A stretch of DNA of 64,000 nt from Mobula hypostoma (Eukaryota). Numbering within the stretch: position 1 is the first letter of the stretch; each line of letters begins with the position of its first letter. Both the position numbers and the translations under genes were made by a program. The stretch spans positions 23,004,001 through 23,068,000 of the forward strand of contig NC_086097.1 in NCBI RefSeq assembly GCF_963921235.1, read 5' to 3'. Below the pieces are notes generated by a model. That model saw only the letters and a program-made list of their open reading frames with translations. It was not told where the DNA came from and did no database searches. This document shows, piece by piece, positions 3,900 through 57,590 of this stretch.

Positions 3900-4825
3900 T
3901 CCCTTCCTGACCCCTCTCCAACTTCTATAAAGATCATTCTCTACATGATTCACTTGTCCACTAGTCCCTTGGCACTGATCTCCTCCTGGCACTTATCTCT
4001 GCAAGCCCCTACACCCCAAACAGTCCCTCCATGTGAGGCGACACTTCACCTGTGAGTCTATCAGTGTCAGGTATTATATCCGATACTCCCCGTGTGGCCA
4101 CCTCTACATCGGTGAGACCTGACACAGATGGGGGGGAGGCTGCTTTGTCAAGCATCTTTGCTCTACCCACTGCAAAAGGCAGGATCTCCCATTGGCTATC
4201 CATTTCAATTTGACTTCCCATTCCTTTACTAACCTGTGTGTCCATAGCCTCCTTGGCTGCCACAATGAATGCAAACTCCAGTTGGTGGACCAATAGCTCA
4301 CATTCCACCTAGCTGGCCTCCAACCTGATGGCATGATCATCAATTTCTCTAACTTCCAGTAATTTCCCTCCCCTCTTCCTTTCTCCCTTTATCCATTCCC
4401 CATTCTGGTTCCCCTCTCACCCCTTTTTTTCTCCTCTCCCACCTATTATTCTGTCTGTTTCCCCTCCTCCTTCCCTTTCTTACATGATCCACTCTCCCTT
4501 CCTATCAGGTTTCTTCTTCTTCAGCCCCTTACCTATTCTACCGATCACCTCCCAGCTTCTTTCTTCACTCACACCTCCCACACCCATCCATCTTCCCCAT
4601 TGCCTGATCTCACCTATCACCTGCCAGCTCGAACTCCTTACACCTCCCCCAGCTCTTATTCTGGTTTATGCCCCATTCCTTTCCAGTCCCGATGAAGGGT
4701 CTCGGCCCAAGTACATGGATTGCTTATTCCTCTCCATAGATGCTGCCTGACCTGCTGAGTTCCACCAGCATTTTGTGTGTGTTGCTCAGGATTTCCAGGA
4801 TCTGCAGAATCATTTGTGTTTATAA
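3900..4825 (+). mobile_element. Penelope-like element 3' remnant (GIY-YIG endonuclease fragment plus pseudo-LTR with degenerate hammerhead)
   Basis: 4030-4119 translates HVRRHFTCESISVRYYIRYSPCGHLYIGET (YIGET motif of Penelope GIY-YIG) and then hits a stop. A pyrimidine-rich tract follows, then cagtcccgatgaagggtctcggccc and the tail gatgctgcctgacctgctgagttcc. Confidence 0.85.
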
Positions 4826-4894
4826 TAGTCAGTTAAAGCTGTGCTAAGCTTGCTGAATAAGGCCGGTAGGACTGCAGATTTTCACCGTTTTAGT

Positions 4895-5590
4895 AAATAT
4901 TTCACCTTTCACCCTAAACCTATGACCTCTAGTTTAAGTGTCACCCATCGTTAAGCCGGTAATCATTCATCTGATTCGTACCCCTCAGAGTTTTATAAGA
5001 TCAGCTCTCATTCTCTGCCATTGCAATAAATGAAGTCCTATCCCATTCAACCTTCCCCTGAACTTTAGGTCCTCACCTTCTCTTCTGTCAGCGAGTTCTA
5101 GGTATTAGCCACACTGTGTATGAAAAATACCTCAAACCCTCTTTAAGACAGCTGAAACCTATTTCTGCTATTCCTCAGGAAAAAAAAGTTCTGACTCTCT
5201 CTATCCTGTATGTGCTTCTTATAATCTTATAATTCTCTAAAAGTTCATCCTTCAGCCTCATTCACTCCAGTGAGAACAAATCTAGCAATTTATCTAATCT
5301 CTACCCATAACTGAAGTCCTCCAATGTAGGCAACATCTTGTTCAGTCTTGTCTGCAATCTCTCCAGTGTAATCACATCCTTCCTAGTGACCGGAACTATG
5401 CGGAACATTCCAAGTGTGCTGTGACCAGTATTTTGCAAAGTTGCAACATAGCATCTTAATTTTCATGTGCTTTGTCCCGAGCTAACAATATAAACATGCC
5501 AAATGCCTTCTGCAACACCCTATCTACATGTGTTACCCCTTTCAATGAACCATGGACTTGAGTGTCTCTTGGTTCATCAATATTCCTTTG
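4895..5590 (-). mobile_element. Decayed CR1/HER1 LINE fragments
   Basis: The minus strand resembles the CR1 ORF2 C-terminus (VQVHGSLK..QVDRV.KKAFG...HLE...QF.S), with several indels. Confidence 0.65.
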
Positions 5591-8005: not shown

Positions 8006-8009
8006 TTTA

Positions 8010-15054: not shown

Positions 15055-16120
15055 TACCTCATATTCTATCTTGGTAGGCTCCAACTTGATGACATCAACA
15101 TTGATTTCTCTAACCTCTGGTAACTAGTCTCCTCTGTATTCCCCTTCACAACTTATTTTTTCTTATTCCTCTGGCCCCTTCATTCCTTCTCTTTCCTCAT
15201 TCCCACCCTTACAAACTGCCCATCACCTATCCCCTCTCTTTCCTCATTCCCACCTTCACAACCTGCCCATAACCTATACCTTCTCTTTCCTCATTCTCAT
15301 CCTCACAACCCGCCCATCACCTATACCTTCCTTCCTCATTCCCACCTTCACAACCTGCCCATAACCTATACCTTCTCTTTCCTCATTCTCATCCTCACAA
15401 CCTGCCCATCACCTATACCTTCCTTCTTCATTCCCACCCTCACAACCTACCCATCACCTATACCTTCTCTTTCCTCATTCCCACCCTCACAACCTGCCCA
15501 TCACCTATACCTTCTTTCTTCATTCCCACCCTCACAACCTGCCCATCACCTATACCTTCTCTTTCCTCATTCTCATCCTCACAACCTGCCCATCACCTAT
15601 ACCTTCTTTCTTCATTCCCACCCTCACAACCTGCCCATCACCTATACCTTCTCTTTCCTCATTCTCATCCTCACAACCTGCCCATCACCTATACCTTCTT
15701 TCTTCATTCCCACCCTCACAACCTGCTCATCACCTATACCTTCTCTTTCCTCATTCCCACCCTCACACCCTGCCCATCACCTATACCTATTATTGCATGC
15801 TCTACTATCCCCTGCTATCAGATTCCACCTTGTTCAGCCTTTTGTCTCTTCCGGCTATTACTCCAGCTTCTTACACTATCCCCACTTCACCCCCACCCCC
15901 CTTTCCCTACCCTATTACCCTATGCACCTGAATTCACCTATCACCCATCAGCTTATCGATTTCTCCTCCCCTACCCTCTTCCTTTCCAGCCCTAGTGAAG
16001 GATCTTGGCCCAAAGTCTCAACTGTCCATTTCCCTCCATTCATACTGCCTGACCTGCTGAGTTCCTCTCAGCACTTTGTAAGCGTTGCTGCTGATTTCCA
16101 GCATTTGCAGAGTCTTGAGT
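15055..16120 (+). mobile_element. Penelope-like element 3' remnant containing a minisatellite
   Basis: Colinear with 4290-4820 (ctcatattc...ctccaac...gatttctctaac...). It ends with a degenerate hammerhead region and ctgcctgacctgctgagttcc. Confidence 0.75.
15185..15787. repeat. 45/47-bp minisatellite, about 13 copies
   Basis: Unit TATACCTTC(TC)TTTC(C/T)TCATTC(C/T)CA(C/T)CCTCACAACCTGCCCATCACC, with long and short units mostly alternating. Confidence 0.95.
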
Positions 16121-16215
16121 TTTGAAGTGTGTTCGCATGTCCATCTCATTCATGGTTTTGTTGGTTGCCTTCTTTTATTTATTTTGCTCTGTCCGCTCTC
16201 CGTGATCTCTTACCT

Positions 16216-16445: not shown

Positions 16446-16465
16446 TTTAAAAAAACCTTCCCCAC

Positions 16466-19760: not shown

Positions 19761-19891
<131 letters not shown>

Positions 19892-20785: not shown

Positions 20786-21540
20786 TACACTGAGTGGTCG
20801 TTTTATGAGGTACATGAGATATCTAATAAAGTGGCCACTGAGTGTATGCTCATGATCTTCTGCTGCTTTAGTCTATCCATTTCAAGATTTGATGTGTTGC
20901 CTGTTCAGAGATGCCCTTCTGCACACCTCTGCTGTAATGCATGGCTATTTGAGTTACTGACTCCTTCCTTTTGGCTTAAACCAGTCTCTTCTGATCTCTC
21001 CCATTAACAAGGTATTTTCACCCGCAGAACTGCCGCTCACTGGATTTTTTTTTGTTTTTTTTCACTGTTCTCTGTAAGCTCCAGAGACTATTGTGCGTGA
21101 AAATCCCAGGAGATCAGCAGCTTCTCAAGTGTTCAAATTCCCATCTGGCACCAACAATCATTCCTCTGCCAAAGTAACACACATAAAAGTTGCTGGTGAA
21201 CGCAGCAGCCCAGGCAGAATCTCTAGGAAGAGGTACAGTCGTCTCGGCCCGAAATGTCGACTGTACCTCTTCCTGGAGATGCTGCCTGGCCTGCTGCGTT
21301 CACCAGCAAATTTTATGTGTGTTGCTTGAAATTCCAGCATCTGCAGATTTCCTTGTGTCTGCCAAAGTAACTTTGATCACATTTCTTCCTTATTCTGCCA
21401 TTTGGTCTGAGCAACAACTGAACTTCTTGACCATGTCTGCATGCTTTTATGCATTGAGTTGCTGCCAAGTGATTGGCTGATTAGATATCTGCATTAACGA
21501 GCAGATGTACAGGTGTACCTAATAAAGTGGCCACTGAGGA
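20786..21540. mobile_element. Non-autonomous Tc1/mariner element, interrupted by a Penelope fragment
   Basis: Termini TACACTGAGTGG...TTTATGAGGTAC and GTACCTAATAAAGTGGCCACTGAG. The body matches copies at 23293 and 52084. Confidence 0.75.
21179..21357. mobile_element. Fold-back Penelope pseudo-LTR insertion with 14-bp TSD
   Basis: TSD TCTGCCAAAGTAAC at 21165-21178 and 21358-21371. Inverted arms of ~65 bp flank the 3' half of the hammerhead (gtctcggcccgaaatgtc). Confidence 0.85.
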
Positions 21541-24200: not shown

Positions 24201-24564
24201 AGATGTGACATGATACAGGTGCTGGAAACCATGAAAGATTGTAAATCTGTGAATATGGTAGATTCTGTCATTTGAATAGCTTGTGAGGAACAAGAAGACG
24301 CACACGTAAGATCGTGGAGAAAAGAATGGTGCATTTAGGGAATTTTTTTCTGTGGAAGGATGTCAGAACATGAAATGTGAAAAGTAATTTCTTGGGGGGA
24401 AAAGCAGGTAGGTATGATGAGATAGAAAGCTGTTTCAATGACAGGAAGACTAACATTTGCTGAACAATGCAAATCACATACCCGAGGAACTCAGCAGGTC
24501 TGGCAGTACATATGGAGGGAAATAGTTGGCACAGTAGTGTACCAGGTAGCGCAGTGCTTTACAG

Positions 24565-31009: not shown

Positions 31010-31672
31010 GGCAACATGCACAAAATGCTGGAGGAACTCAGCAGGTCAGGCAACATCTATGAAGCGGATTAAACAATTGACGTTTCAGGCTGAGACCTTT
31101 CATTACGACTAGAAAGGAAGGATGCCGAATCACCTCCATCCCACCTCCTTCCTTTTGTTCCACTATCCTCTCCTATTAGATTCTTTCCTCTTGCACACGG
31201 ACCATATCCCTCCATACACCTCCCATCCATGTACCTGTCCAATTTATTCTTAAATGTTAAAAAAGAACCTGCATTTACCACCTCGTCTGGCAGCTCATTC
31301 TATACTCCCACCACCCTCTGTATAGAAACCATAGAAAAACTACAGCACAGAAACAGGCCTTTTGGCCCTTCTTGGCTGTGCCGAACCATTTTCTGCCTAG
31401 TCCCACTGACCAAAGTCTTCAGCTCTCTATCTCTTCCATCTATCAACCGCCAGCTTCTCACATCTTTGCCCTCTCCCCCAGCCAGCTATCTACCTTACCT
31501 CTCACCTAGGCTCACCTATCACCTGCCAGTTTGTACTTCTCCCTCTTCTCCCCTACCTTTTTGTTCTGGTTACTTCCCACTTCCTTTCCAGTCCTGATGA
31601 AGGGTCTTGGCCTGAAATGTTCACTGTTTGCTCCTCTCCATAGATGCTGCCAGACTTGCTGAGATAATCCAG

Positions 31673-31719
<47 letters not shown>

Positions 31720-31760
31720 GCTCCAGATTTCCTTTATCTGCAGAGTCTCTTGTGTCTACA
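31010..31760. mobile_element. Inverted pair of Penelope pseudo-LTRs with intervening CR1 fragments
   Basis: A minus copy at 31010-31115 and a plus copy ending cagtcctgatgaagggtcttggcctgaaa...gatgctgcc...(TG)n...ctgcagagtctcttgtg. Confidence 0.75.
31589..31626 (+). ncRNA. Minimal type-I hammerhead ribozyme motif (Penelope-associated), slightly degenerate
   Basis: CAGTC-CTGATGA-AGGGTCTTGGCCT-GAAA-TG-TT-CACTG. Both core boxes are intact and stem II can form. Stem I pairs 4 of 5, and the ACGT palindrome has become ATGT. Confidence 0.65.
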
Positions 31761-33581
31761 ATTGTCGGAGCGAACTGAAGGATCCTGCACAGATGGTGTT
31801 CAAAATAACAGGTAATTTATTAAAAAGCTGATGGGCACCAGGAGATCAGCCAAAGCCAACTTACCCGAGCTTGAATTTGGTTCAGCTTTTAGATTCCCAG
31901 TAAAACCACGATTTGTTAACAGAATGGTGGCTGCAGGAGGATTTAATTAAGACCATAAGACATAGGAGCAGAATTAGATCATTAGACTCATCGAGACTGG
32001 TCTGCCATTTCACCCCCATTCCCTGCCTTCTCCCCGTAGCCTTTCACACCCTGATTAATCAAGAACCTATCAACCTCCACCTTAAATACATCCAGTGACT
32101 TGGCCTCCACAGCCGTCTGGCAATGAATTCCACAGATCACCACTCTCTGGCTAAAGGAATTCCTCCTCATCTCCATTAGGTAACAGACTAGGTTCTGTTT
32201 ACAGAATAAAATGATTAACCACGAATCTAACAGTAATTCCATTTTTCTATAACAACGAAGGGTGCACGCTATAACACAATTAGTGAAGTTCCTGAAGCTT
32301 GGATGTTGTTACTACTGCAGTCCATGCCTCTACTTCTATACTTTTTCTGCAGTTGTCTCTTGCCATATTAGCACAATCCACATGTCTGCTTACTGGTTAT
32401 TAGCTCTCAATCTTCTTTCTGCTACCACACTCGTCCCACTAGAGGAAATGTATCTTTTTTTTATGACAATTGCTTGACTTCAGGAGCATCCGAGTGAACC
32501 TCTTCTTCACCCTCTCGAAAGCCACCCTCTTCCCTGGGCTGAAATGGCTAACGAAAGGGGGCATAGTTTTAAGGTGTTTGGAAGTAAGTACAGAGGGGTT
32601 GTCAGGGGTAAGTTTTTCACACAGAGAGTGAGGGGTGCGTGGAATGTACTGCCAGTGATGGTGGTGAAGGCGGAAACAATAGGGTTTTTAAGAGATCCTT
32701 AGATAAGTACATGGAGCTTAGAAAAATAGAGGGCTATACGATAGGGTAACTCTAGGCAGTTTCTAGAGTAGGTTCCATGGTCGGCATAACATTGTGGGCC
32801 AAAGGGCCTGTAATATGCTGTAGATTTCTATGTTCAATGTTCTATCTTCTAACAATCATTCCATAGTCAAAGTCAGTTAGATCACATTTCTTTCCCTATT
32901 ACGATATTTGGTCTGGACAACAACTGAAGTTCTTGACCATGTCTGTGTGCATTGACGTGCAGCCACATGACTGGCTGATTAGATTTTTGCATTAACAGCA
33001 GGTGTACAGGGGTACCTAATAAAGTGGTTGTTGAGTGTGTATTGAGCCAGGAGAAAGGCAATTTGATGTAGTAGAAATATTTGAATTAATTTACATAGCT
33101 ATGGGGAGAAAGCTTGGGAACAGATTTAAATGGACAATCCTTTCAATATGTCATGGTTTGTGTGGGTGATTGTATAATTTTGTGATTATATGAAACATAA
33201 ACCAGTTTTTCACCAAGCATTTCATTATTTAGTACAATATTATTACATTGTGTAATGTGTACTGTTACTCTGAAGAAAAGGACAGACATTAAAACCAACA
33301 GTTAATATTGGCTGAGAACTTGCCTTGGGAGATTTGTAGAATATAATGTTATGCTATGAACACAGCCACCAGTTGGCTTTATTAACTGCAGAGGAACGAA
33401 AGGCTTTGCACATGTACAAGCTGGCAACTTGCCTCTATTGCTCTCTTTAAGATTAAAAATGAAGTCTGAAATGAAACTTTTTATATTTCTGATCAAGTAC
33501 TTACAGGACACAAATGACACTAATAAGACACTGAGCTACATATTGTAATCCGTGTAATGTCTGCTTTGGATGAGTGGCATT

Positions 33582-33865: not shown

Positions 33866-36037
33866 TTATAAATCCTGTTGAGCTATTTCAATGGTACATG
33901 GTTTTTTTAAATTATACTAATGTGATGAAGACACAATTAATTTGGTCCAGTAAGGCAATCCTCAGCAGACTGCGCACCACAGGGGACTCCTTATACTCTG
34001 CTTCACTTTTACCTTATATATCAGCCGACTCATGAAGTTGCAGAGTCTTAGAACACTACAGCATAGAAACAAAAGCTTTGAGCCATCTGGTCCATGCCAA
34101 ACTGTTATTGTGCCTAGTCCCATCGACTTGCATCCAGACCATATCCCCCCATACCCCTCCCATCCATGTACTAGTCCAAACTGCTCCTCGATGTTGGAAT
34201 CGAACCCACATTTACCACTTCCACTGGCAGCTCATCTCACGTTCACACTACCCTCTGAGTGAAGAAGGTCCCCCTCCGGTTCGCCTTAAAAATTTAATCA
34301 TTGTATTTTACAACATGGAACGTGCAATATTTGAGTGGGGCAGCTACTGTTTCTTTTAATTTTATAGGTGTCTGTTTTTAATTCAGTTGTAACTTAGATG
34401 TCATTCTAAATAACTCAGACATTATTTTTTAATGTAGTCAGTGTGCTTTTAGTAACTGGATTGCCTGTATGCTGTTTTGCACAGAATGGAATAGTACTTC
34501 AATCTTCTGGTGTCCTCAGCAATGACAATAAAGCTCTAAGTTTCCCTCTGTAGCTTTTTATTTTTCACCCTTAACCCATGACCCCTCTTCAGGGTTCAGG
34601 GTTGACGGAACACTGATCTCTGAAACTTTTAGGCTCTGGTCATCGCCCCAGAATTTTGAATAAAAAGGTCTTGTCAGTCTCAGTGCCGTCCAGTGCTGCT
34701 GGCAGGGTAATCTTTCAAATGAAATATAAAATCAACCATTCTCTTGCCTGAATGACAAGTGCTCAACATTTCTGATTAAACAACTTTATCAGAAACATTG
34801 TGCATTTTACTCACTTCCTTCTCCACAGATGCTACTGAGTACTTCCAGAATTCTCTCTTTTATTTCCAATTCATAACATCAGCACTGTTTTACTTTAGTT
34901 TAAAATGATAAGATACACCACGGTAGCGTAGTAGGGGGTGGGGGAGTTATATATGTAACATTTTCTAATTAGGCAATATCTTTCTGGAATCACATTGAGT
35001 CATAGCCCACTGCTCCAATATAAAAGCAGAAAATACTGAAAATACTCAGCAGGACAAGCAGCGTCTGTGGGGAGTGAAAGATAATGTGATGTTTCTTGTT
35101 AATGACCTAGCTCCAGCTGCTCTCTCAAGTTAATATGATTAAACCCATGGCATTATTTTCAGTAGCGCAGAAAGATTATATCTATTGGAGTCATAGTGTT
35201 ACAGAAAGTACAGCACAGAAAGAAGCCCATTGGCTCATCTAGTCTGTGCTGAACCATTTAACCTGTCTACTCCCATCAAGCTGCACCCAGACCATAGCTC
35301 TCCATACCCCCACCATCCATGTACCTATCTAAACTTCTCTTAGATGTTGAAATCGAGCTCGTATACACTGCTTGCGCTGGCAGCTCATTCCACACTCTCA
35401 CCACCTTCTCAGTGAAGAAGTTTCCCCTCATGTTCCCCTTAAACTTTTCACCTTTCACCCTTAACCTATGACCTCTAGTGGGGAAAAAAGTACTCTCACC
35501 TTTGTTAACAAAACAGATGATCAACTTTGAACTGATTCAGCAACCTACCGGCTCCCTTTCAAGGACTCTACCACTCATGTTCTCAGTGTTATTTATTTTT
35601 TACATGCACAATTTGTCCTCTGTTGTACATTTGTTGTTTGTCAATCTTTGGTCATGTTTAATTTTTTAATAAATTCTATTACATTTTTTTATTTTCCCGT
35701 GAATGCCTGCAAGAAAATGTACTATGTACTTTGATACTAAATTTACTTTGACTTATCCCTTTATTGACACATTGGTACTTGTAGGAGCTCAAAATGCATG
35801 GACTGCTCTGCCTTAGAGTGAATTCTTTGTGAGTACACCTTTAGCTCTGCCACGCATTGACACACTCAAAAGCAGAAGCAAATTACTATGTTACAGTATT
35901 ACAGTAGGACACAGTCAATGTCCTACTGTGTTTTCAAATGCCTGGCTGCTACCTAGAATAGTTCCTGATATTGAGTCACTTTGTCACTTTATCATTCCCT
36001 GTCAGGGTCACTTTAGTGCATACAATCGGTCCATATA

Positions 36038-40459: not shown

Positions 40460-41335
40460 CTACTCACTGGAGTTCAGAAGAATGAGGGGTGACCTTGTTG
40501 AAACCTACTGAATGTAGAAAGGCCTTGATAGAGTGGATGTGGAGAGGGTATTTCCTGTGGTGGGAGAGTCAAAGACCAGAGGACACAGCCTCAGAATAGA
40601 GGAGTGTCCTTTTAGAATGGAGATGAGGAGTAATTTCTTCAGCGAGAGAGTGGTGAACCTGTGCAATTTGTTGCCACAGGCAGTTATGGAGGCCAAATCA
40701 TTGGGTATATTTAAGGCAGAGGTTGATAGATTCTTGATCATTCAGGCAATGAAGGGATATGAGGAGAAGGCAGAAGATTGGGGCTGAAAGAGAAAATCAA
40801 TTATTCATGATGAAATGGCAGAGCAGACTCGAAGGACCAAATAGACTAATTAAATTCCTATATCTTATGGTTTTATGCACCATGTATACACGCCATCAGA
40901 ACCACCACTTGGAAAATAGCTTCTGGCTTGATGTCTGGAGCCATAAATCTACTTAGGCCTGATTGATAGAGTATGTCAATGTGTAATTCAAGGAAGGGGG
41001 GACAGATTATGTCCATGATACCATTACAGATGAAATGAAGTGCTTACCAGTCCAACTTCTAATATGCATAGGCAGCTTAAATGATGAAACGGGGTTGATG
41101 AATATCTGGACTGCAAGTAGCCTAAATCTACTGCACCACATTCATAAAGACCACACAGAGAAATTGATGTTTTATCCTTGGGGAAGTAGAATGATGCTAC
41201 AGGATGTTTACAGACGGTTCCATCTCTGTATCCTGTACAAAAGTTGGGACGGCTCGCTGCTCACAACAAACAGCGAGATGAGAAATCCACTACGAAGTGA
41301 TGAACTACTTCTTTACAGGTATATGGGTTCTCATC

Positions 41336-41368
41336 CTGATGAAGGGTCTCGGCCCGAAATGTCAACTG
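41336..41368 (+). ncRNA. Hammerhead core in a 5'-truncated Penelope fragment (stem I 5' arm missing)
   Basis: CTGATGA-AGGGTCTCGGCCC-GAAA-TG-TC-AACTG followed by the family tail to ~41435. Confidence 0.5.
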
Positions 41369-41729
41369 TTTACTCTTTTCCATAGATGCTGCCTTGCCTG
41401 TTGAGTTTCTCCGGCATTTTGTGTGTGTTGCTTTCGATTCTAGTGGTCATCTTTTTTTTAACCAGTAATCAGAAGTTCTCCCCAACAGGAGCTGGGGATG
41501 AAGGAAGACAAAATATAAACAAAAATGTGGTGTTATTTGATGCCAATAACAATTTTCTACCTTTATTCCTGAACAACTTTGTGTTCAGTGTGTAGTACTA
41601 ACAGTGAATGTGCCAATTTTGGCTCTGGCATCATGCCTGTTGTGTAAAGGTTGTGGTAGTTTCTGCATGCTGATCTTCCCAAATAAGATTCATTTTCTTT
41701 TTTCCTTTTCTCTTCCATGACCCACGCAG

Positions 41730-42031
41730 CCAGGGAAGACAACTCTGCAACATTCCGAGGATCGGAGTACTTCTGTTATGACCTGTCGCAGAACCCCATC
41801 CAGAGCAGCAGTGATGAGATCACCCTGTCCTTCAGGACCTGGCAGCGAAACGGGCTGATCCTGCACACAGGGAAGTCAGCTGACTATGTAAACCTAGCGC
41901 TGAAAGACGGAGCAGTTTCACTAGTCATTAACCTGGGATCTGGTGCTTTTGAGGCGTTGGTTGAACCAGTAAATGGGAAGTTCAATGACAACGCCTGGCA
42001 CGATGTCAAAGTGACACGCAATCTGCGACAG
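41730..42031 (+). CDS. NRXN3: Neurexin-3-alpha coding exon (N-terminal part of LNS domain 2), 302 nt, phase 1 to phase 0
   Basis: Encodes (A)[100 protein letters not shown]. Polypyrimidine tract with cag acceptor, and CAG|gtaatg donor. The residues [12 protein letters not shown] and KDGAV favour NRXN3 over NRXN1. Confidence 0.95.
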
Positions 42032-43327
42032 GTAATGGTGGAGCCGCGTGTTAAGCTGCTAAACAGAAAAAAAACACAGGCAGGATGGGAAGAGATAAAA
42101 TGAAGTGGTCATGTTCACGTAAAACGACACAGGTCAATCTATGTATCCTTTCCCCCTACCTTTCCTCCTCCCTCCAGAGAAAAAAAAACTTTGCTAATGG
42201 TTTATTTTACAGCCCATTTTCTTTACCTTTCTTCATTCTCAGTTTAGTTTGTTTGGTGTCCTATCTTCAAAAAGCTTGATGGCTTTTATTTCCTAAATTT
42301 CTGGTTCCCATGGTTCTGTTGAGGCTTTCAATCTGGTTCCCTTATTTTGTGATGCATTTCTTATTATTTATTGGTTTTAGTTGTTTTAACCATTTTCATG
42401 AACGAAGGCTTAGTTTTTTGGGCAATAACGTTGTATGCTGGAATGATTGTAAACTCATGTTTTCTACACGGCTGGCTGCAATTCTTTTCCTTTGTCTGTA
42501 TATGTGAGTGATTTTCTTAGCTCGGACTGGAGCACTAATTATCCTTGTGTTGACCCATTTTACTTCATTCTTTGCTTCCTTAGGCAGAAATCTCTGTCAG
42601 GGGCCATCACTTTTCTTGATGGCTTTGGACGACTGAATGCTCCTGTTAATAATAACCTCACCCTGTAAAGGTCCCAGGACTAGTGACACTGATTATGCCT
42701 TCTGCAAGAGAGCTTCAAGAAATCAAGCCTGTTTCTTATTACTGCCTGGCAGTATTGCTGTTGAACTTTAAACGAGAGTCAGTACTGGTGTTTTTTCTCA
42801 ATGGTTAAATGGAGGGTGTTGTCTCTTTCTGCCTTAGAGTATCTCCAATAGTACTTTTGGATATTGTGTTGTAATTAAATTGGTCTACTGGTTTGTTTAT
42901 TTCTAGGAAGATTCAATTAAGTTAGAAAGAGGAATTGTAGCTTGATTATATGTAACCAGGACAACATTTTGAGATTATAGCCCTGATGTAAACCAGATTT
43001 TCCAAATTAAGTCCCACTAAGGTTGATAATGAAAGAACATTGACAATGACACATTGACGGCGCTAATAAGCTAATCCAGTTTTAGGATCAATTTCAGGAT
43101 TTAATAAAGTCTGGTTTGTGGTAATGCTAATGTTTTTGATGAGGCATACAAAACTAAGCTTACTGTTTTTTTAAAAAGAAATAGAGGTCACTGTGTCATT
43201 TGATGAAAAAAAAATTAATTAATGACAAAGAGTTGTTGAGAACTATTTTACTCGTTTTTTGGTCTGCTTTGGTCCTGTAAATTTGTTGCATCTTCTCTAT
43301 ATGTCAATGACACGCTTTTAAAAAGAA

Positions 43328-44832: not shown

Positions 44833-44994
44833 GTCACCATTTCAGTGGACGGTATCCTCACTACGACGGGTTATACCCAAGAAGACTACACCATGCTGGG
44901 GTCTGATGACTTCTTCTACGTTGGTGGAAGTCCTAGTACAGCAGATCTGCCTGGCTCTCCTGTCAGCAACAACTTCATGGGATGCCTCAGAGAG
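44833..44994 (+). CDS. NRXN3: Neurexin-3-alpha coding exon (C-terminal part of LNS domain 2), 162 nt, phase 0 to phase 0
   Basis: Encodes [54 protein letters not shown]. Acceptor aatag|GTC, donor GAG|gtagag. It joins in frame to the upstream exons. Confidence 0.96.
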
Positions 44995-48756: not shown

Positions 48757-49286
48757 ATGTCATAAACACTGGAGATTCTGCCGATGACAGAAATTGTGTG
48801 CAACACACACAAAAACTGCATGAGGAATACAGCAAGTTGGGCAGTATCTGTGGAAGTGAATAAACAATCAATGTTATGGGCCAAGACACCTAGATATATT
48901 TTCAGATTTAAGAGATGCAGCAAGGTAACAGGGCATTCTGGTCCAGTGAGCCCTTGCTGCCCAATTACACACATGACAAATTAACTTAATCACTCATACA
49001 TCTTTGGAATGTGGGAAGAATCCAAAGCACTCGACCGCAGAGAGAATGTACAAATTCATTACAGACAGAGGTGGAATTGAGGCTAGTTCACTGGCGCTGT
49101 AGTAGCATTACGCCACCGTGATTCCTGATGAAGGATCTCGGCCTGAAGCGTTACCTGTTTATTTCCTTCCTCAATGCTGCCTGACTTGCTGAGTTCTAAC
49201 GTGCTGGACACACCATGTGTACATTTCTCTAACAACTAATTTAACTGGTCAGAATATCAATGCTAAACACGTTGCAATTTAAAATA

Positions 49287-49940: not shown

Positions 49941-52083
49941 CACCTCTCTTCAACCCAAAGAGCCAGACAGGTGATCCATCCTGGCCTTCTCTTGAGATAG
50001 CGATCATCAAGGAAACTTGTATTCAGCACGTTCAATTAACCCCACATCGGGAAATAGCTACCACTGGGAATATGCAGACCTTTAGATGAATTGTAGAGTG
50101 GATCTACTCAAATTTTAAATATTTATTTAGTTATAAATATTAATTTCCAAATCATTTGTTTTTCCTGGAACCTGAAGTATTGTGTGATGATTGACCGAAA
50201 GAAACACCTTTTTTTTTATTGGGAAATTTAAGATTGCAATAATAATCAAAAAAATTGAGCCAGCACTCCTTGGACAGAACTCAGGAAACTTTTGAATGTA
50301 TAAGAGGTGGCAGAAGTAGCCTGCAAATGAAATTTGATGCTAAGACAACTGTTTAAACAGAAACCAGTATTTAATAGTTTTCAATGGCCCTGGAATAATT
50401 GCTTGGTCTTCATTGACTGAAGCCTTTTGGTCACACCTGTCTGTCACAATCAGCCCAATGCTCTATTGTTTCCACACTCACCACTGAGTGTCCAGGGATA
50501 TCTCACAGTCACCAGATTAATCAGTGACGGATTTCCACCATCCAGGATACATCCTTTTCTCATTACTACCATCAGATTTCTGAACTGTCCATGGATACCA
50601 TCTCATTATTCATCTTCTGCACTATTTACTTGTTTTTGTAACAGAGTATTTTTTATGTCTTGCAATGACCTGCTGCTGCAAAACAATGAATTTTATGACA
50701 TATGTCAGTGATATTAAACCTGATTCTGTCAGAGATCCAACTCTGTAGGTTGAGCTGCCCCTCAAGCATCAGACTCTTGAACAAAAGGGGGTAACTACAC
50801 TCATTTGCCCATCCAGTGAGATGCTTCCGCAGACAATGATCTCACTTTAAGGACTCTTTATCTCATTATCTCATGTTCTCATTATTTATTGTTATTTCTT
50901 TATATTTGCATTTGCACAATTTGTTGTCTTCTGCACTCTAGTTGATCTTTCATTGACCCTGTTATAGTTATTTCTATAGACTTGCTGAGTATGCCCGCAG
51001 GAAAAGGAATCTCAGGGTTGTATATGGTGACACATATGTACTTTGGATAATAAATTTACTTTGAGCATCGAACTCTAGGTTGAACAGAGGAGTTTTACGA
51101 GGGAATCACTCAGTCCGTGTTTGCTTTTGCAAGGTGACACATTGCGAGCATCTACAAGTATATTACATTGACGAGTTACCAGTGAACCACTGCTGCATCT
51201 GGAAGGAGCTAGATAATGAGAAAGGGTAGAGATGAATGGGTGAACATTGCATTTCCTGCAGTTGCTCAGGGGAACTGACAAGAGAATTAGAGTGGGTGTT
51301 AGTGAGGATGGAAAAGTGAACCAGCAAGTCATTGAAAGTTGAAAGTCGATGGGAGGGGACGATTTGTCAGATGGTGACATTATGTTAGAGATGGTAGCAA
51401 TTATAGATGATTGGCTGAAAATTGAGATAGGTGAAGACATGGTAAGGAACCCACACAAAATGCAACAAATCAGGCAGCATCCGGAGTTCAGTGTAAATTT
51501 ATGATCAAAGTACATGTGTGTCACCATATACTGCCTTGAGATTCATTTTCTTGCAGGCATTTACAGGAAAATAAAGGAATACGATAGAAACTATGAATAC
51601 CAAAGATTGAGAAACACCCAAAGCGCAAAAGGCAAGTTGTGCAAATTATTTAACAAATTAAACAAATAATACTGAGTTGCAGAATTCTTGAAAGTGAGTC
51701 TGTAGGTTGTGGAGTCAGAGTTGAAGTGAGTGAAGTTATCCACAGAAGTTTGGGAGCCTGATGGTTCTGGGGTAATAACTGTTCCTGAACGCGGTGGTGT
51801 GGGACTGCAGACTCCGGAACCTCATCTCCAATGCTGGTAGCGAGAAGACAGCATGGGTGAAGGTCCTTGATGAGGGATACTGCTTTCTTGTGCAGCGCTT
51901 CATGTAAATAAGCTCAATGATGGGGAGCAGCTTGTCGGTGACAGTCTGGCCTGTATCCACCCCTGTTTGTAGACATCTTCATTCAATGGAGGGGAATAAA
52001 CAGTTGACGTTTCAGTCCAAGACCGTTTTCTTTTGGATTGTAAAGATGTTAATGACCACAGGATTGGTAGGACTGTTGTAACT

Positions 52084-52925
52084 CATACTCAGTAGCCTCT
52101 TTATTAGGTACATCTCTACACCTACTCATTAATGCAAATATCCAGTGAAGCAATCGTGGCAGCAACTCACTGCATAAAAGCATGGAGACATGATCAAGAG
52201 TTTCAGTTGGTGTTCAGACTAAACTTCAGAACGGGGAAGAAATGTGTTCAAAATGACTTTGACTGTGAAATTATTGCTGGTGTATGGTATATGGAGGAAT
52301 TTAAGGTGGGGGCTTATATGAGAGGCAGGGTTTGAGGGTCGGCACAACATTGTGGGCCGAAGGGCCTGTACTGTGCTATGTTCTATGTGTCAGATGGGGT
52401 GGGTGAGGTGAGTATCTCTGAAACTGCTTATCTCCGGTGACTTTCACACACAACACTCTCTAGGGCTTAGATAAAATGGGGAGAAAAGCAAAAAAAAAAT
52501 CCAGCGAGTGGCAGTTCTGTGGGCAAAAATGCCTGTTAATAAGAGAGGTCACAGAAGTATGGCCAGATGGGCTCAAGCTGACAGGAACTCGAATAACCAC
52601 TCGTTATAACAGTAACATGAGAAATTCTGCAGATGCTGGAAATCCAAAGCAACAAACACAAAATGCTGGAGGAGCTGAGCAGGTCAGGTAGTGTCTATGG
52701 AAATGAGAAAACAGTCGATGTTTCAGGCCGAGACCCTCCTTCAGGAAGAGGGGGCTCATCCCGAAATATCAACACTTTGTTCATTTGTGCCTGGCCTGCT
52801 GAGTTCCTCCAGCATTTTGTGTGCGTTGCATTAGAATAGTGCAGAAGAGCATCTCTGAATGCACAATTCGTCAAACCTTAAAGTAGATGAGCTACAGGAG
52901 GCAACTAATAAAATGGCTAGTGAAT
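52084..52925 (+). mobile_element. Tc1-like remnant interrupted by a CR1 tail and an inverted Penelope pseudo-LTR pair (52615-52830)
   Basis: Same family as 20786 and 23293 in the opposite orientation. Arms cacaaaatgctggaggagctgagcagg / cctgctgagttcctccagcattttgtg. Confidence 0.7.
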
Positions 52926-55189: not shown

Positions 55190-57165
55190 AAAGCCTGCAG
55201 CACAAAGCTGTGCCGAACATGTCCTTACTTTAGAAATTATCTAGGGTAACTCATAGCCCTCTATTTTACGAAGCTCCATGTACCTATCCAGGAGTCTCTT
55301 AGAAGATCCTATCATATCTGCCTCCACCACTGTCGCTGGCAGCCCATTCCATGCACTCACCACTCTCTACGTAAAAAAATTACCTCTGACATCTCCTTTG
55401 TACCTACTTCCAAGCACCTTAAAACTGTGCCCTCTTGTGGCAGCCATTTCACCCCTGGGAAAAAGATTCTGACTATCCACATGATCAATGCCTCTCATCA
55501 TCTTATACACCTCTATCAGGTCACCTCTCATCCTCCGTCACTCCAAGGAAAAAAGGCTGAGTTCTCTCAACCTATTCTCATAAGGTACGCCGTCCAATCC
55601 AGGCAACATCCTTGTAAATTTCCTCTGCAGCCTTTCTATGGTTTCCACATTCTTCCTGCAGTGAGGCGACCAGAACTGAGCACAGTACTCCAAGTGGGGT
55701 CTGACCAGGGTCCTATATAACTGCAACATTACCTCTCGACTCCAAAACTCAATCCCACGATTGATGAAGGCCAACACACCGTATGCCTTCTTAGCCACAC
55801 AGTCAACCTGTGCAGCAGTTTTGAGTGTCCTATGGACTCAGACCCCAAGATCCCTCTGATCCTCCACACTCCCAAGAGTCTTACCATTAATACTATATCC
55901 TGCCATCATATTTGACTTACCAAACTGAACCACCTCACTCTTATCTGGGTTGAAGTCCATCTGCCACTTATCAGCTCAGTTTTGCATCCTATCGATATCC
56001 TGCTGTAACCTTTGACAGCCCTCCACACCATCCACAACACTCCCAACCTTTGTATCATCAGCAAATTTACTAACCCAAGCCTCTACTTCCTCATCCAGGT
56101 CATTTATAAAAATCATGAAGAGAGGGGCTCCCAGAACAGATCCCTGAGGCACACCACTGGTCACCGACCTCCATGCAGAATATGACCCGTCTACAACCAC
56201 TCTTTGCCTTCTGTTGCCAAGCCAATTCAGGATCCGCAAAGCAATGTCCCCTTGGATCCCATGCCCCCTTACTTTCTCAATAAACCTTGCATGGGGTACC
56301 TTGTCAAATGTCTTGCTGAAATCCGTATATACTACATCTACAGCTCTACCTTCATCAATGTGTTTAGTCACATCTTCAAAAACTTTAATCAGGCTCGTAA
56401 GGCACGACTTACCTTTGACAAAGCCATGTTGAGTATTCCTAATCATATCATGTCTCTCCAAATGTTCATAAATCCTGCCTCTCACGATCTTTTCCATCAA
56501 TTTACTGATCACTAAAGTAAGACTCACTGGTCTATAATTTCCTGGGCTACCTCTACTCCCTTTCTTGAATAAGGGAAGAATATTCACAACCCTTCAGTCC
56601 TCCGGAAACTCTCCCGTCCCCATTGATGATGCAAAGATCATTGCCAGAGGCTCAGCAATCTCCTTCCTTGCCCCCCACAGTAGCCTAAGGTACATCTCAT
56701 TCAGTCCCGGTGACTGATCCAACTTGATGCTTTCCAAATGCAAAAGCACATCCTCGTTCTTAATCGCTATATGCTCAAGCTTCTCAATCCACTGTAAGTC
56801 ATCCCTACAATTGCCAAGATCCTTTTCCATAGTGAATACTGAAGCAAGTATTCATTAAGTACCTCTGCTATCTCCTCTGGTTTCATACACACTTTTCCAC
56901 TGTCACACTTGATTGGTCCTATTCTCTCACATTTTATCCTCTTGCTCTTCACATACTTGTAGAATGCCTTGGAGTTTTCCTTAATCCTGTCCGCCAAGGC
57001 CTTCTCATGGCCCCTCCTGGCTCTCATAATTTCATTCTTAAACTCCTTCCTGTTAGCCTTATAATCTTCAAGATCTCTATCATTACCTAGTTTTTTGAAC
57101 CTTTTGTAAGCTTTTCTTTTCTTCTTGACTCGATTTACAACAGCCTTTGTACACTACGGTTCCAT
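55190..57165 (-). mobile_element. CR1/HER1 LINE, ~2 kb, decayed reverse transcriptase
   Basis: PGNYRPVSLT, QHGFVKGKSCLT, DFSKTFDKVPH, SGVPQGSVLG, KFADDTK and LVRPHLEYCAQFWSP, spread over several frames. Confidence 0.95.
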
Positions 57166-57487
57166 TTTATCATCTGAAAATCCAAACATACAGTGAAAGG
57201 CATCACTTGCATCAACAATCAACACACCTGACGGAGTGCTAGAGGCAGCCCACAGGTGTCGCCACATATTCCAATGTCAACATAACCTGCCCACGATGCT
57301 CAGAACATGACAAATAACGAAAACAACAACAGCAAAACAAGCCCCATTCCTCCCTCCTACCTGCGCACGTACACAGTCCTCCAATCCCAAGATAATCCAT
57401 CTTCTTTGGCCTCCAGCCTACAGCAGACTTGGATTCAGACTCAGACATGCAGGCCTCGGACCTTGATTACCCCAGCGGACTTGCAGA

Positions 57488-57590
57488 CTTCGTCCTGACG
57501 AAGGTTCTTGGCCTGAAACGTCAACTGTACCTCTTCCTAGAGATGCTGCCTGGCCTGCTGCGTTCACCAGCAATTTTGATATGTGTTGTG
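57488..57590 (+). ncRNA. 103-nt Penelope-derived insertion consisting of a hammerhead motif plus tail
   Basis: GTC-CTGACGA-AGGTTCTTGGCCT-GAAA-CG-TC-AACTG. 8-bp direct repeat CTTGCAGA at 57480-57487 and 57591-57598. Confidence 0.65.

What the first reader, a model, noticed from the sequence alone, without database searches (positions are those of the whole stretch)
4684..57590. Dispersed family of hammerhead-ribozyme-bearing Penelope fragments throughout a neurexin intron
Seen: at least 10 related copies (4684+, 15985+, 21241+, 31075-, 31589+, 41336+, 49125+, 52000-, 52711-, 57492+) give a by-eye consensus CAGTC-CTGANGA-AGGGTCTCGGCCY-GAAA-CG-TC-GACTG. CAGTC/GACTG forms stem I, CUGANGA and GAAA are the catalytic boxes, GGGT/GCCC forms stem II, and stem III is reduced to the palindrome ACGU before a GUC cleavage triplet. 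One copy is attached to a YIGET GIY-YIG remnant. Known: Penelope-like elements carry minimal type-I hammerheads thought to cleave as dimers through a palindromic stem III. Inference: this is a high-copy ribozyme retroelement family in this genome, and most copies are sense to the neurexin pre-mRNA. Every copy here has at least one defect, which could reflect neutral CpG decay or selection against cleavage of the host transcript.
Basis: partly seen in the sequence, partly recalled or inferred. Interest (0 to 1): 0.8.

Follow-up and report, generated by a model that had tools for sequence, protein, structure and literature searches.

The report
Penelope retroelement tails with hammerhead motifs
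These are decayed tail fragments of a hugely amplified Penelope-like jumping gene that carries a small hammerhead ribozyme motif, a known kind of element, scattered through the introns of a neurexin gene with no sign that they affect it.

Summary
All ten listed copies exist, plus about five more fragments, and they belong to one repeat family. The family is the non-coding 3' end of a Penelope-like element (PLE). Fuller copies elsewhere in the genome carry a reverse transcriptase plus C-terminal GIY-YIG open reading frame (ORF), then about 320 nt of untranslated region, the hammerhead motif, and about 70-110 nt to the 3' end. The motif has most features of the published minimal type-I PLE hammerhead, but its helix II is short and Rfam models miss it. 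The genome holds 72,574 cores within 2 mismatches. No window copy is intact. Damage is mainly CpG decay (39.6% vs 10.0% of sites changed) or truncation at insertion. Orientation is unbiased (47 sense, 44 antisense in 264 kb), so nothing suggests selection against cleaving the host transcript. The span is not one intron: two neurexin-1-like exons lie inside it. Extra points: the commonest variant has a G-U wobble at 10.1-11.1 (39,061 exact copies vs 6,969 with G-C). About 17% of young copies sampled begin sharply at the 5' edge of the motif; no abrupt end at the predicted cleavage site. This is a new member of a known kind, of moderate interest.

The parts
3982..4362 (+). Decayed C-terminal GIY-YIG endonuclease coding remnant of a 5'-truncated PLE copy (reads ...HLYIGET* with several stops); ORF end near 4362
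   Evidence: tblastn of the GIY-YIG ORF from L010: 48.7% identity over 119 aa, E 1e-25; translation
4364..4832 (+). 3' untranslated region, hammerhead motif (CAGTC starts at 4684) and tail of the same copy. The motif is dead: CCGATGA replaces CTGATGA and the GAAA region is disrupted
   Evidence: nhmmer E 8e-107, model columns 2-452; motif status; sequence
15797..16130 (+). 5'-truncated copy; motif near 15985 with both boxes mutated
   Evidence: nhmmer E 3e-29
21170..21368 (.). Head-to-head inverted pair. The minus arm is 21170-21252 and the plus arm is 21241-21368. The plus arm starts inside helix II, so the CTGANGA box is absent. The minus arm ends at the reverse complement of GACTG
   Evidence: self-BLAST 88% over 159 nt; nhmmer hits on both strands; sequence
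24469..24524 (-). Short fragment of the region downstream of the motif (no hammerhead part)
   Evidence: nhmmer E 7e-5, model columns 344-400
31006..31120 (-). Copy with GAAA and ACGT kept but first box GTAATGA
   Evidence: nhmmer E 1e-24
31418..31769 (+). Long copy with both boxes intact. The ACGT palindrome and helix I are lost to CpG-type changes, and a (TG)n tract near the 3' end is expanded
   Evidence: nhmmer E 6e-74
35032..35079 (-). Weak fragment of the region downstream of the motif
   Evidence: nhmmer E 4e-4; not inspected further
41334..41437 (+). Short copy that begins at TCCTGATGA, so it has no helix I 5' strand. Both boxes and helix II are intact. It lies about 300 nt upstream of a neurexin exon
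   Evidence: nhmmer E 9e-28, starts at model column 307
41729..42043 (+). Host exon: neurexin-1-alpha-like LNS2 domain, first part
   Evidence: phmmer to 3qcw_A residues 228-332, E 2e-89; Laminin_G_2 hit at window 41831-42040
44833..44994 (+). Host exon: second part of the same LNS domain (approximate ends)
   Evidence: Laminin_G_2 hit at window 44812-45000, model positions 60-122; translation
48758..48887 (-).
   Evidence: nhmmer E 6e-20
49118..49197 (+). Short copy beginning at TCCTGATGA; GAAG replaces GAAA
   Evidence: nhmmer E 4e-14
51984..52026 (-). Fragment from helix II to just past the cleavage triplet; first box absent
   Evidence: nhmmer E 2e-5
52614..52833 (.). Head-to-head inverted pair. 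The minus arm is 52614-52746 and begins at TCCTGAAGG, where A9 has become G. The plus arm is 52734-52833
   Evidence: nhmmer hits on both strands
57492..57588 (+). Short copy of the young subfamily beginning at GTCCTGACGA. Both boxes are intact, helix II is weakened and G1.1 has become A
   Evidence: nhmmer E 3e-29, starts at model column 306

Best explanation
The copies are dead, mostly 5'-truncated insertions of the 3'-terminal region (the pseudo-LTR part) of a canonical endonuclease-bearing Penelope-like retroelement. This element has amplified enormously in this cartilaginous-fish genome.

[quoted passage not shown] The endonuclease has a Neptune/Nematis-type CX4CxxC linker. After the ORF come about 320 nt of pyrimidine-rich untranslated region and then a 38-nt minimal type-I hammerhead motif. 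The motif consists of helix I (C/U)AGUC with GACUG, the CUGANGA box, an unpaired A, helix II GGGU/GCC(C/U) with a CUCG loop, the GAAA box, the palindrome ACGU in place of helix III, and the GUC cleavage triplet. A further 70 nt (or about 110 nt with an optional tail) leads to the 3' end.

Shown here: the anatomy, the link to the ORF, the copy numbers, the decay pattern and the insertion architecture.

Inferred from published work on other PLEs: two motifs pair through ACGU to form a dimeric ribozyme that cuts after GUC. The copies spread by target-primed reverse transcription that starts at one of two sites near the 3' end.

In the neurexin gene the copies are passive intronic debris.
For: Family and extent.

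Parent element: L010 carries ORFs with RVT_1 (E 4e-5) and GIY-YIG (E 9e-4), followed by the 3' region with the motif. Full-length relatives P0013 and P0040 have both domains; GIY-YIG passes Pfam's cut-off in both, RVT_1 only in P0040. The ORF stop-to-motif spacing of about 320 nt is the same in window copy 4684 and in L010.

Abundance: 72,574 cores within 2 mismatches, against a control of 0. There were 49,104 first-look candidates for the N-terminal ORF. All 125 scored were 87-100% identical, and 19 sit in an open frame of exactly 1,043 aa.

PLE hallmarks:
- Variable 5' ends with common 3' ends in two classes. 28 of 91 hits end at model columns 396-415 and 42 of 91 at 429-454, which matches an optional tail.
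- Tandem upstream copies in 3 of 8 loci.
- Among the first 100 exact cores, 9 head-to-head pairs lie within 1 kb, against 1 tandem pair and 0 tail-to-tail pairs.

Motif features match the list in PMC4209133. The minimum-free-energy fold of the monomer forms helices I and II. The motif is more alike between old and young subfamilies (34 of 38 positions) than the flanks (46 of 64 and 31 of 40).
Against: No Rfam hammerhead model matches, even in intact copies at E up to 10.

Cleavage was not and could not be tested here.

The commonest variant has G10.1-U11.1 instead of the conserved G-C: 39,061 exact copies against 5,864 + 1,105.

The predicted fold also pairs GA(U/C)G of the first box with CGUC, which would compete with the active core.

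No abrupt 5' ends lie at the predicted cleavage site. In the genome sample, 0 of 20 examined copies end there with unrelated DNA and 1 of 20 is an inverted junction there. In the gene sample, 3 of 91 hits start at model columns 337-345.

Only 1 same-strand pair within 1 kb was seen among 100 cores, so most copies have no partner in cis for a dimer.

Pfam scores of the ORFs from the one copy scanned fall below the curated cut-offs. No RT tree was built, so the Neptune label rests on the linker motif alone.
Confidence: 0.88

Rival explanations
1. The hammerhead-like motif is kept for a reason other than self-cleavage. It might be a protein-binding site, part of the promoter or start-site region, or a structure needed for reverse transcription. 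In that case it rarely or never cleaves in vivo in this family.
For: - The G-U variant at 10.1-11.1 outnumbers the G-C variants 39,061 to 6,969.
- No abrupt 5' ends lie at the cleavage site, while about 17 of 100 young copies end at the motif's 5' edge.
- In vitro work on an Anolis PLE found that hammerhead mutants did not affect insertion and that no RNA-seq reads began or ended at the cleavage site (PMC11167929, passages).
- Naiad PLEs thrive without the motif (PMC8557442, passages).
Against: Most descriptor features of the minimal PLE hammerhead are present together, and in the older consensus the G10.1-C11.1 pair is present as well. Related PLE motifs cleave as dimers or with protein help in vitro. 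Templates that were cleaved may simply leave no insertions, so missing ends at the site do not show that cleavage is absent.
Confidence: 0.25
2. The short copies of 100-140 nt are an independent SINE-like non-autonomous family, or a retrozyme, that merely shares the hammerhead with PLEs. They would not be truncated PLE copies.
For: - 22 of 91 hits start at model columns 302-310.
- 12 of 20 examined young copies begin abruptly at T304, A305 or G306 next to unrelated DNA.
- A 2026 preprint argues that animal non-LTR retrozymes derive from PLE terminal repeats (Results section read).
Against: The short copies occur in both the old and the young subfamily and follow the sequence of the autonomous element's 3' end in each. 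This fits by-products of the PLE, not a separate lineage. They are dispersed single copies, not tandem arrays; only 1 tandem pair was seen among 100 cores. All lengths between short and full are also found.
Confidence: 0.1
3. The motifs are host-serving intronic ribozymes that regulate the neurexin pre-mRNA.
For: Seven of the ten listed copies are sense to the gene. One copy lies about 300 nt upstream of an exon.
Against: 0 of 9 window copies that span the motif are intact. Orientation in 264 kb of the gene is 47 sense to 44 antisense (p = 0.83). Decay follows the CpG pattern expected of unconstrained DNA. The same sequence occurs more than 72,000 times genome-wide on both strands equally, 36,260 against 36,314.
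Confidence: 0.01

Closest known systems
Minimal type-I hammerhead motifs of Penelope-like elements (Cervera and de la Pena 2014, PMC4209133; Lunse, Weinberg and Breaker 2016, which I saw only as cited and described in PMC6765202)
   Same: - CUGANGA and GAAA boxes.
- Short helix I of 5 bp.
- An unpaired nucleotide between A9 and G10.1.
- G10.1-C11.1 in the older and two of the young variants.
- Helix III replaced by a palindrome (ACGU), which implies a dimeric active form.
- Location in the terminal repeat region of a PLE.
- Most copies are single and truncated, and opposite-strand pairs 40-830 nt apart are frequent.
   Different: Helix II is only 4 bp with a tetraloop, whereas 6-8 bp are reported for Schistosoma and Drosophila PLE motifs. 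The commonest variant has a G-U wobble at 10.1-11.1. Sequence heterogeneity is low: 39,061 identical 33-mers, in contrast to the extreme variability the paper stresses. Copy number is about ten times the 4,000-9,000 it reports for coelacanth and Xenopus.
Neptune-clade (or Nematis-type) endonuclease-bearing PLEs of fishes
   Same: A single ORF with RT followed by a C-terminal GIY-YIG domain. A CxxC lies inside the GIY-YIG core and a CX4CxxC linker lies upstream of it (defining features from passages of PMC8557442). Other shared traits are 5' truncation, partial tandems, inverted upstream copies and an optional tail.
   Different: No phylogeny was made here, so clade membership is not shown. In my literature searches, PLE hammerheads in cartilaginous fishes appeared only as one sampled species in a 2026 preprint.
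Poseidon PLE of Anolis carolinensis (PAc; Frangieh et al. 2024, PMC11167929, passages)
   Same: Two adjacent 3'-end classes separated by a 30-45 nt tail, which fits two internal start sites of reverse transcription. A hammerhead is present. No sign that cleaved RNA is the template.
   Different: In PAc the ORF starts inside the hammerhead, so the motif sits at the 5' end of the unit. Here it lies about 320 nt after the ORF stop and 70-110 nt before the 3' end.
Animal non-LTR retrozymes (Cervera and de la Pena 2020, PMC7229834, passages; Li et al. 2026 preprint, abstract and Results)
   Same: Type-I hammerheads likely to act as dimers, a link to PLE terminal repeats, and copy numbers up to the 10^5 range (axolotl).
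   Different: Retrozymes are tandem arrays of canonical hammerheads that give circular RNAs. The copies here are dispersed single insertions of a minimal motif; only 1 tandem pair (460-nt period) was seen among 100 cores.

Membership tests
Penelope-like element (canonical, endonuclease-bearing) | One ORF with reverse transcriptase followed by a C-terminal GIY-YIG endonuclease | tested here: met
   In L010, an RT ORF (RVT_1 E 4e-5) overlaps and runs into a GIY-YIG ORF (E 9e-4), both below Pfam cut-offs. Relatives at 53-54% identity, P0013 and P0040, carry both domains; GIY-YIG passes the cut-off in both, RVT_1 only in P0040 (P0013: 29.4 vs 29.6 bits). Open frames of 1,043 aa occur in 19 of 125 scored copies.
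Penelope-like element (canonical, endonuclease-bearing) | [quoted passage not shown] | tested here: met
   By inspection of the L010 ORF...VIYCVRCSQCGILYIGET... followed by histidines. The feature is defined in PMC8557442 (passage).
Penelope-like element (canonical, endonuclease-bearing) | Insertion architecture: 5' truncation, partial tandems (pseudo-LTRs), adjacent inverted 5'-truncated copy, optional 30-40 bp tail | tested here: met
   5' ends are spread over the whole model, while 3' ends fall in two classes (28 and 42 of 91). Tandem upstream copies occur in L034, L038 and L039. There are 9 head-to-head pairs among 100 cores, and two such pairs lie in the window.
Penelope-like element (canonical, endonuclease-bearing) | RT groups with PLE and telomerase RTs in a phylogeny | not tested
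   No named reference sequences were on hand. The homologues found are unnamed or labelled 'uncharacterized'.
Neptune clade of PLEs | CX2-5CxxC zinc-finger-like linker upstream of GIY-YIG | tested here: met
   CKWNKCYTC lies about 40 aa before the GIY-YIG core in L010 and L009. The feature is shared with the Nematis clade, so it does not decide the clade.
Minimal type-I hammerhead of PLEs | Catalytic boxes CUGANGA and GAAA in order, separated by helix II | tested here: met
   Present in 46,030 exact genomic copies of three variants. In the window, both boxes are present in 3 of 9 copies that span the motif.
Minimal type-I hammerhead of PLEs | Helix I of 4-6 bp closing the motif, with the cleavage triplet UH before its 3' strand | tested here: met
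   (C/U)AGUC pairs with GACUG (5 bp; the outermost pair is G-C in the old subfamily and G-U in the young). GUC precedes G1.1.
Minimal type-I hammerhead of PLEs | [quoted passage not shown] | tested here: met
   The A after CUGANGA is changed in only 2% of 56 copies.
Minimal type-I hammerhead of PLEs | Conserved G10.1-C11.1 pair | tested here: inconclusive
   G-C is present in the old consensus and in variants with 1,105 and 5,864 exact copies. The commonest variant, with 39,061 exact copies, has G-U.
Minimal type-I hammerhead of PLEs | Helix III absent or 1 bp, with palindromic positions 15.2-16.2 that allow a dimer | tested here: met
   A15.1-CG-U16.1 gives the palindrome ACGU. It is kept in exact copies and lost by CpG decay in 36-43% of older copies.
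Minimal type-I hammerhead of PLEs | Helix II longer than usual (6-8 bp) | tested here: not met
   Helix II is GGGU/GCC(C/U), 4 bp with a CUCG loop. This is a reported tendency, not a requirement of the published descriptor.
Minimal type-I hammerhead of PLEs | Self-cleavage after H17, as a dimer | not testable with these tools
   No RNA run was confirmed as RNA, and only assembled contigs were available, which cannot show RNA ends.
Rfam hammerhead families (Hammerhead_1, _3, _II, HH9, HH10) | Score at or above the family's gathering threshold | tested here: not met
   No hammerhead hit at gathering score or at E up to 10, either in the window or in loci with exact cores. From my own knowledge, these models expect a helix III that this motif lacks.

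The most novel reading that the evidence does not exclude
In this family the hammerhead sits exactly at the 5' end of the RNA that is copied. About one in six young insertions begins at T304, A305 or G306, the first bases of helix I. There the sequence (C/T)(C/T)AGTCC fits an initiator-like start-site motif (consensus recalled, not tested). Snap-back inverted arms start at the same point, as expected when reverse transcriptase runs off an RNA end.

On this reading, every copy that keeps the upstream pyrimidine-rich region would fire short transcripts running from the hammerhead to the tail. Internal initiation of reverse transcription would then turn these into SINE-like mini-copies of 100-140 nt, which account for much of the ribozyme load of the genome.

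No abrupt ends lie at the cleavage site, and a G-U core variant outnumbers the G-C variants more than five-fold. This would mean that efficient self-cleavage is not what selection maintains in this element.
Probability: 0.3. Interest if true: 0.55.

Novelty: new member of a known kind. Interest (0 to 1): 0.35.

Why it matters
What the hammerhead does for Penelope-like elements is still an open question. This genome offers an unusually large and young natural data set for it. It holds at least 46,030 exact and 72,574 near-exact motifs from one family in 3.5 Gb, many copies with long open frames, three core variants with very different success, and a sharp record of where template RNAs ended.

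That record argues that uncleaved RNA was the template. It agrees with the one in vitro study of a PLE.

For annotation, the case shows that Rfam-based scans miss this whole class, so a descriptor or a family-specific profile is needed. For the neurexin gene itself, the copies are ordinary intronic repeats.

Tried and rejected
- **Rfam scans.** Rfam at gathering score and at E up to 10 on the window and on intact copies found no hammerhead. This is a limit of the models, not evidence against the motif.
- **Generic box pattern.** CTGANGA...GAAA alone is not above chance in the window: 9 matches against 6.0 expected. Only the family-specific core is.
- **PDB searches.** Sequence searches of the Protein Data Bank with the RT and GIY-YIG ORFs gave nothing.
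- **Exon search at the window ends.** A Pfam scan of 122 open frames at the two ends of the window found none. The exons were located instead by a Laminin_G_2 search of the genome.
- **RNA evidence.** No RNA holder was listed. Laying contigs of four runs showed only that summed depth falls about 700-fold at the element's 3' end (L039 1120/1121). Contigs cannot show RNA ends, and the runs are not confirmed as RNA.
- **Dimer fold.** The minimum-free-energy cofold gives a trivial extended duplex and says nothing about the active dimer.
- **Earlier findings of this scan.** Nothing was found by place, sequence or words.
- **Lunse et al. 2016.** Not held, so its motif definitions could not be checked.
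- **Full-length RNA starting at the motif edge.** Not confirmed. In 8 loci with the ORF start, 3 have long tandem upstream copies, and the one short upstream copy (L035) is an older, separate insertion.
- **Splice-acceptor reading of the sharp 5' end.** The sequence there is a polypyrimidine tract followed by CAG. I rated this reading less likely because the upstream flanks of short copies are AT-rich or repeat DNA, not exon-like.

Full report
**1. The observation**

A 14-nt core with up to 2 mismatches matches 8 times in the window against 0.19 expected. The 24-nt core with up to 3 mismatches matches 4 times against 0.00 expected. The generic pattern CTGANGA...GAAA is not above chance on its own, at 9 matches against 6.0 expected.

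Self-BLAST and alignment show copies of 100-470 nt that are 75-85% alike. A profile built from four copies finds 15 hits in the window. These are the ten listed copies, second inverted arms at 21170-21252(-) and 52734-52833(+), and fragments at 24469-24524(-), 35032-35079(-) and 48758-48887(-).

Rfam reports no hammerhead in the window, at gathering score or at E up to 10. It also reports none in loci that carry exact cores.

**2. What the repeat is**

The window's own genome is 3.48 Gb in 200 contigs, and the window lies at C1:23,004,001-23,068,000. The reversed-pattern control gives 0.

Loci around exact cores share a common 3' end and differ in how far they reach upstream, by up to 880 nt in the first eight loci.

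One 9.9-kb stretch (L010) shows the parent element. It contains:
- an N-terminal ORF;
- a 645-aa ORF with RVT_1 (E 4e-5);
- a 301-aa ORF with GIY-YIG (E 9e-4);
- then 322 nt to the motif and about 95 nt to the end.

These Pfam scores are below the curated cut-offs. Relatives at 53-54% identity carry both domains, with GIY-YIG over the cut-off in both and RVT_1 over it in one. The ORF has CKWNKCYTC upstream of ...CVRCSQCGILYIGET.... These are the linker and the in-core cysteines that PMC8557442 gives for Neptune/Nematis-type and canonical PLE endonucleases (passages).

The best named protein hits are unannotated predicted proteins of a devil ray (91%) and of sharks (65-74%). The host is therefore a cartilaginous fish.

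In the window, 3982-4293 matches the GIY-YIG ORF at 48.7% identity (E 1e-25). It reads ...HLYIGET* with several stops, and the ORF ends near 4362. That is 322 nt before the motif at 4684, the same spacing as in L010. Copy 4684 is therefore an old PLE copy of about 850 nt, truncated at its 5' end.

**3. Abundance and state of the family**

A search with the N-terminal ORF gave 49,104 first-look candidates. All 125 that were scored are 87-100% identical, and 19 lie in an open frame of exactly 1,043 aa. The family is young and may still be active. I did not try to single out any copy.

Exact counts of the 33-nt core:

| Variant | Position 7 | Position 11.1 | 10.1-11.1 pair | Exact copies |
|---|---|---|---|---|
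| CTGATGA...GGCCC-GAAA | U | C | G-C | 1,105 |
| CTGACGA...GGCCC-GAAA | C | C | G-C | 5,864 |
| CTGACGA...GGCCT-GAAA | C | U | G-U wobble | 39,061 |

The variant with a G-U wobble in place of the conserved G10.1-C11.1 pair outnumbers the two G-C variants together by 5.6 to 1.

**4. Anatomy of the motif**

Read 5' to 3' on the element's sense strand:
- helix I 5' strand, CAGUC in the old subfamily or UAGUC in the young;
- the CUGA(U/C)GA box;
- an unpaired A;
- helix II, GGGU-CUCG-GCC(C/U);
- the GAAA box;
- CG;
- UC, with cleavage predicted after this C;
- GACUG, the helix I 3' strand.

A15.1-C-G-U16.1 is the palindrome ACGU. The short helix I, the bulged base after A9, G10.1-C11.1 (in the G-C variants) and the palindromic 15.2-16.2 are features that Cervera and de la Pena list as emerging beyond their search descriptor (PMC4209133; I read parts 1-2 of 4: abstract, results, discussion and the start of methods). 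Helix II is shorter here, at 4 bp, than the 6-8 bp they describe.

The predicted monomer fold forms helices I and II. It also pairs GA(U/C)G of the first box with CGUC, which would compete with the active core.

Between the old and young subfamily consensus, the motif is identical at 34 of 38 positions. The next 64 nt match at 46 of 64 and the tail at 31 of 40. This is a modest excess of conservation, and it is shared with two other blocks of the 3' region.

**5. The copies in and around the window**

I fetched 200 kb more of the same gene (C1:22.80-23.00 Mb) and analysed it together with the window, 264 kb in all. The profile gives 91 hits, 47 on the sense strand and 44 on the antisense strand (binomial p = 0.83).

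Of the 56 hits that span the motif:
- both boxes are intact in 12 of 33 sense and 10 of 23 antisense copies (Fisher p = 0.78);
- all my criteria are met by 2 of 33 and 1 of 23. The criteria are both boxes, helix I of at least 4 bp, helix II of 4 bp, the UH triplet and no indel;
- in the window, 0 of 9 meet them.

Changes from the ancestral motif fall on the eight CpG positions in 39.6% of cells (174 of 439, of which 151 are C>T or G>A). Elsewhere they fall in 10.0% of cells (157 of 1,572). The odds ratio is 5.9 and p = 1e-42.

The four CpGs hit C11.1/G12, the ACGU palindrome, the cleavage site C17/G1.1 and loop II. Ordinary methyl-CpG decay therefore disables the motif quickly.

An exact G-C core lies in sense orientation inside the same gene at C1:23127605. 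Nothing here points to selection against sense copies, although the sample of intact copies is very small.

**6. The host gene**

Laminin_G_2 exon matches on the + strand run from C1:22.50 to 24.55 Mb, and two fall inside the window. The open frame at 41687-42100 matches neurexin-1-alpha residues 228-332 (3qcw_A, E 2e-89). Frame 1 at 44833 onward reads the second half of the same LNS domain.

However, the span 4684-57590 covers parts of at least three introns, not one.

**7. Insertion architecture and a sharp 5' terminus**

The 3' ends fall in two classes. 28 of 91 hits end at model columns 396-415, and 42 of 91 end at 429-454. This matches the optional 30-40 bp tail known for PLEs and the two adjacent start sites of reverse transcription found for an Anolis PLE (PMC8557442 and PMC11167929, passages).

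Among the first 100 exact cores of the commonest variant, 9 head-to-head (-,+) pairs lie within 1 kb. There is 1 tandem pair and there are 0 tail-to-tail pairs. Two such head-to-head pairs are in the window.

The 5' ends are not spread evenly:
- 22 of 91 hits start at model columns 302-310, the first bases of helix I, against 3 of 91 at columns 337-345 around the cleavage site. By eye, the upstream DNA of these copies is unrelated.
- Genome-wide, I extended the exact core upstream in 3-nt steps. The counts are 39,061 -> 35,322 -> 28,864 -> 26,387, giving retentions of 0.904, 0.817 and 0.914. The excess loss falls at the TTA step.
- Of the first 100 copies with GTC + core, 23 lack TTA. I fetched 20 of these 23. 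Twelve end abruptly at T304, A305 or G306 next to unrelated DNA, 5 are inverted junctions at the same point, and 3 are point variants. That gives at least 17 of 100.
- At the cleavage site, 34 of the first 100 copies with an exact downstream 30-mer lack GTCG. Of the 20 of these 34 that I fetched, 19 are point changes, mostly at CpGs, with homology running on upstream. One is an inverted junction and none is an abrupt end.

They never had a full helix I.

**8. How it most likely works**

*Shown:* the element's make-up, its copy number, its decay and where its copies begin and end.

*Inferred from published PLE work:*
- Copies arise by target-primed reverse transcription that starts internally at one of two sites near the 3' end.
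- Upstream inverted arms arise when the enzyme snaps back.
- Two motifs pair through ACGU into a dimeric hammerhead that cuts after GUC. Activity is low in vitro unless helped (PMC4209133; PMC6765202 and PMC11167929, passages).

*My inference from the termini:* the RNAs that were copied mostly carried an uncleaved motif, and a sizeable share of them began at the motif's 5' edge. Inverted arms start at the same base, which suggests an RNA end, not trimming of DNA.

The sequence there, (C/T)(C/T)AGTCC, fits an initiator-type start-site consensus that I recall and did not test. PLE promoters and start sites are known to lie in the terminal repeat. In Drosophila virilis Penelope the promoter is TATA-less, and its intron ends at the 5' end of helix I (PMC2377424 and PMC6765202, passages; PMC4209133).

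A start site at the motif edge, an RNA processing site and a strong stop for the enzyme all remain open.

**9. Comparison and novelty**

Minimal hammerheads in PLE terminal repeats, their dimer design, their mass occurrence as single truncated copies and opposite-strand pairs are all in print (PMC4209133). PLEs of the Neptune and Poseidon groups and derived retrozymes are reported for vertebrates including one cartilaginous fish (2026 preprint, abstract and Results read).

Three searches combining Penelope with elasmobranch, Chondrichthyes or hammerhead terms turned up no description of this family. I have no access to repeat libraries such as Repbase or Dfam, where it may well be filed.

What is particular here:
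- the scale: more than 72,000 near-exact motifs in 3.5 Gb, against 4,000-9,000 reported for coelacanth and Xenopus, and about 120,000 canonical hammerheads in a salamander genome given as 28 Gb in the preprint (PMC7229834, section heading);
- the uniformity of the motif;
- the success of a G-U core variant;
- the sharp 5' terminus.

I file it as a new member of a known kind.

**10. Limits**

- No cleavage assay was possible.
- No confirmed RNA data were available.
- No RT tree was built.
- The sense/antisense test rests on one gene and 264 kb.
- The supplements of the papers were not read; supplementary figures of PMC4209133 may show fish motifs closer to this one.
- Lunse et al. 2016 could not be read.

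Noticed in passing
window 41334, 49118, 52746(-), 57492; L026:4143 and 8044, L030:2133(-), L040-L059: Many copies begin within a 3-nt window (T304/A305/G306 of the model) at the first bases of helix I, next to unrelated DNA. This applies to at least 17 of 100 young copies sampled and to 22 of 91 hits in the gene sample. The sequence there resembles an initiator-type start site (recalled consensus).
   Followed up: partly
genome-wide counts; example L039:986: The core variant with G10.1-U11.1 and C at position 7 has 39,061 exact copies. The two variants with the canonical G10.1-C11.1 pair have 5,864 and 1,105.
   Followed up: yes
window 21170-21368 and 52614-52833; G000:C1:109231/109307, 2546803/2546844, 4659449/4659491: Head-to-head inverted pairs of the 3' region, joined at or near the motif, are common. 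There are 9 pairs within 1 kb among 100 exact cores and no tail-to-tail pairs. Some junctions are perfect palindromes.
   Followed up: partly
model columns 357-364 and 417-424; e.g. window 4743-4750 region and 57547 region, L006 after the motif: An 8-nt block, AGATGCTG, downstream of the motif is the exact complement of CAGCATCT in the optional tail, in both old and young subfamilies. The two blocks bracket the shorter 3' end and could form a stem around the start sites of reverse transcription.
   Followed up: no
G000 loci listed (e.g. L039): Many copies of the parent element keep long open frames; 19 of 125 scored lie in a frame of exactly 1,043 aa, at 88-91% identity to the copy used as query. 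The family may still be mobile.
   Followed up: partly
window 41729-42043 and 44833-44994 (+): Two neurexin-1-alpha-like exons (LNS2 domain) lie inside the span that the finding calls an intron. Copy 41334-41437 ends about 300 nt before the first exon.
   Followed up: yes
window 20783-20849 and 23290-23356: Two near-perfect 67-nt hairpins match the mir-9256 model on both strands, far below its gathering score (33-40 bits against 80). They look like copies of a palindromic repeat, not microRNA genes.
   Followed up: no
window 60589-60879 (-) and 63757-63999 (+): An open frame with an ALKBH8_N match (27 bits, above its cut-off of 21) and one with the end of a DDE_3 transposase domain (24.5 bits, below its cut-off). 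These are probably remnants of other mobile elements.
   Followed up: no
window 19763-19882 and 31686-31730: There are long (TG)n tracts. The second is an expansion of the short TGTGTG run that belongs to the element's own 3' region in copy 31418-31769.
   Followed up: no
G000:C1:5927975 and 5928435 (+): Two exact cores lie on the same strand 460 nt apart. This is a tandem of the untranslated region, motif and tail unit without an ORF, and it has the layout of a retrozyme-like dimer. It is the only such pair among 100 cores listed.
   Followed up: no
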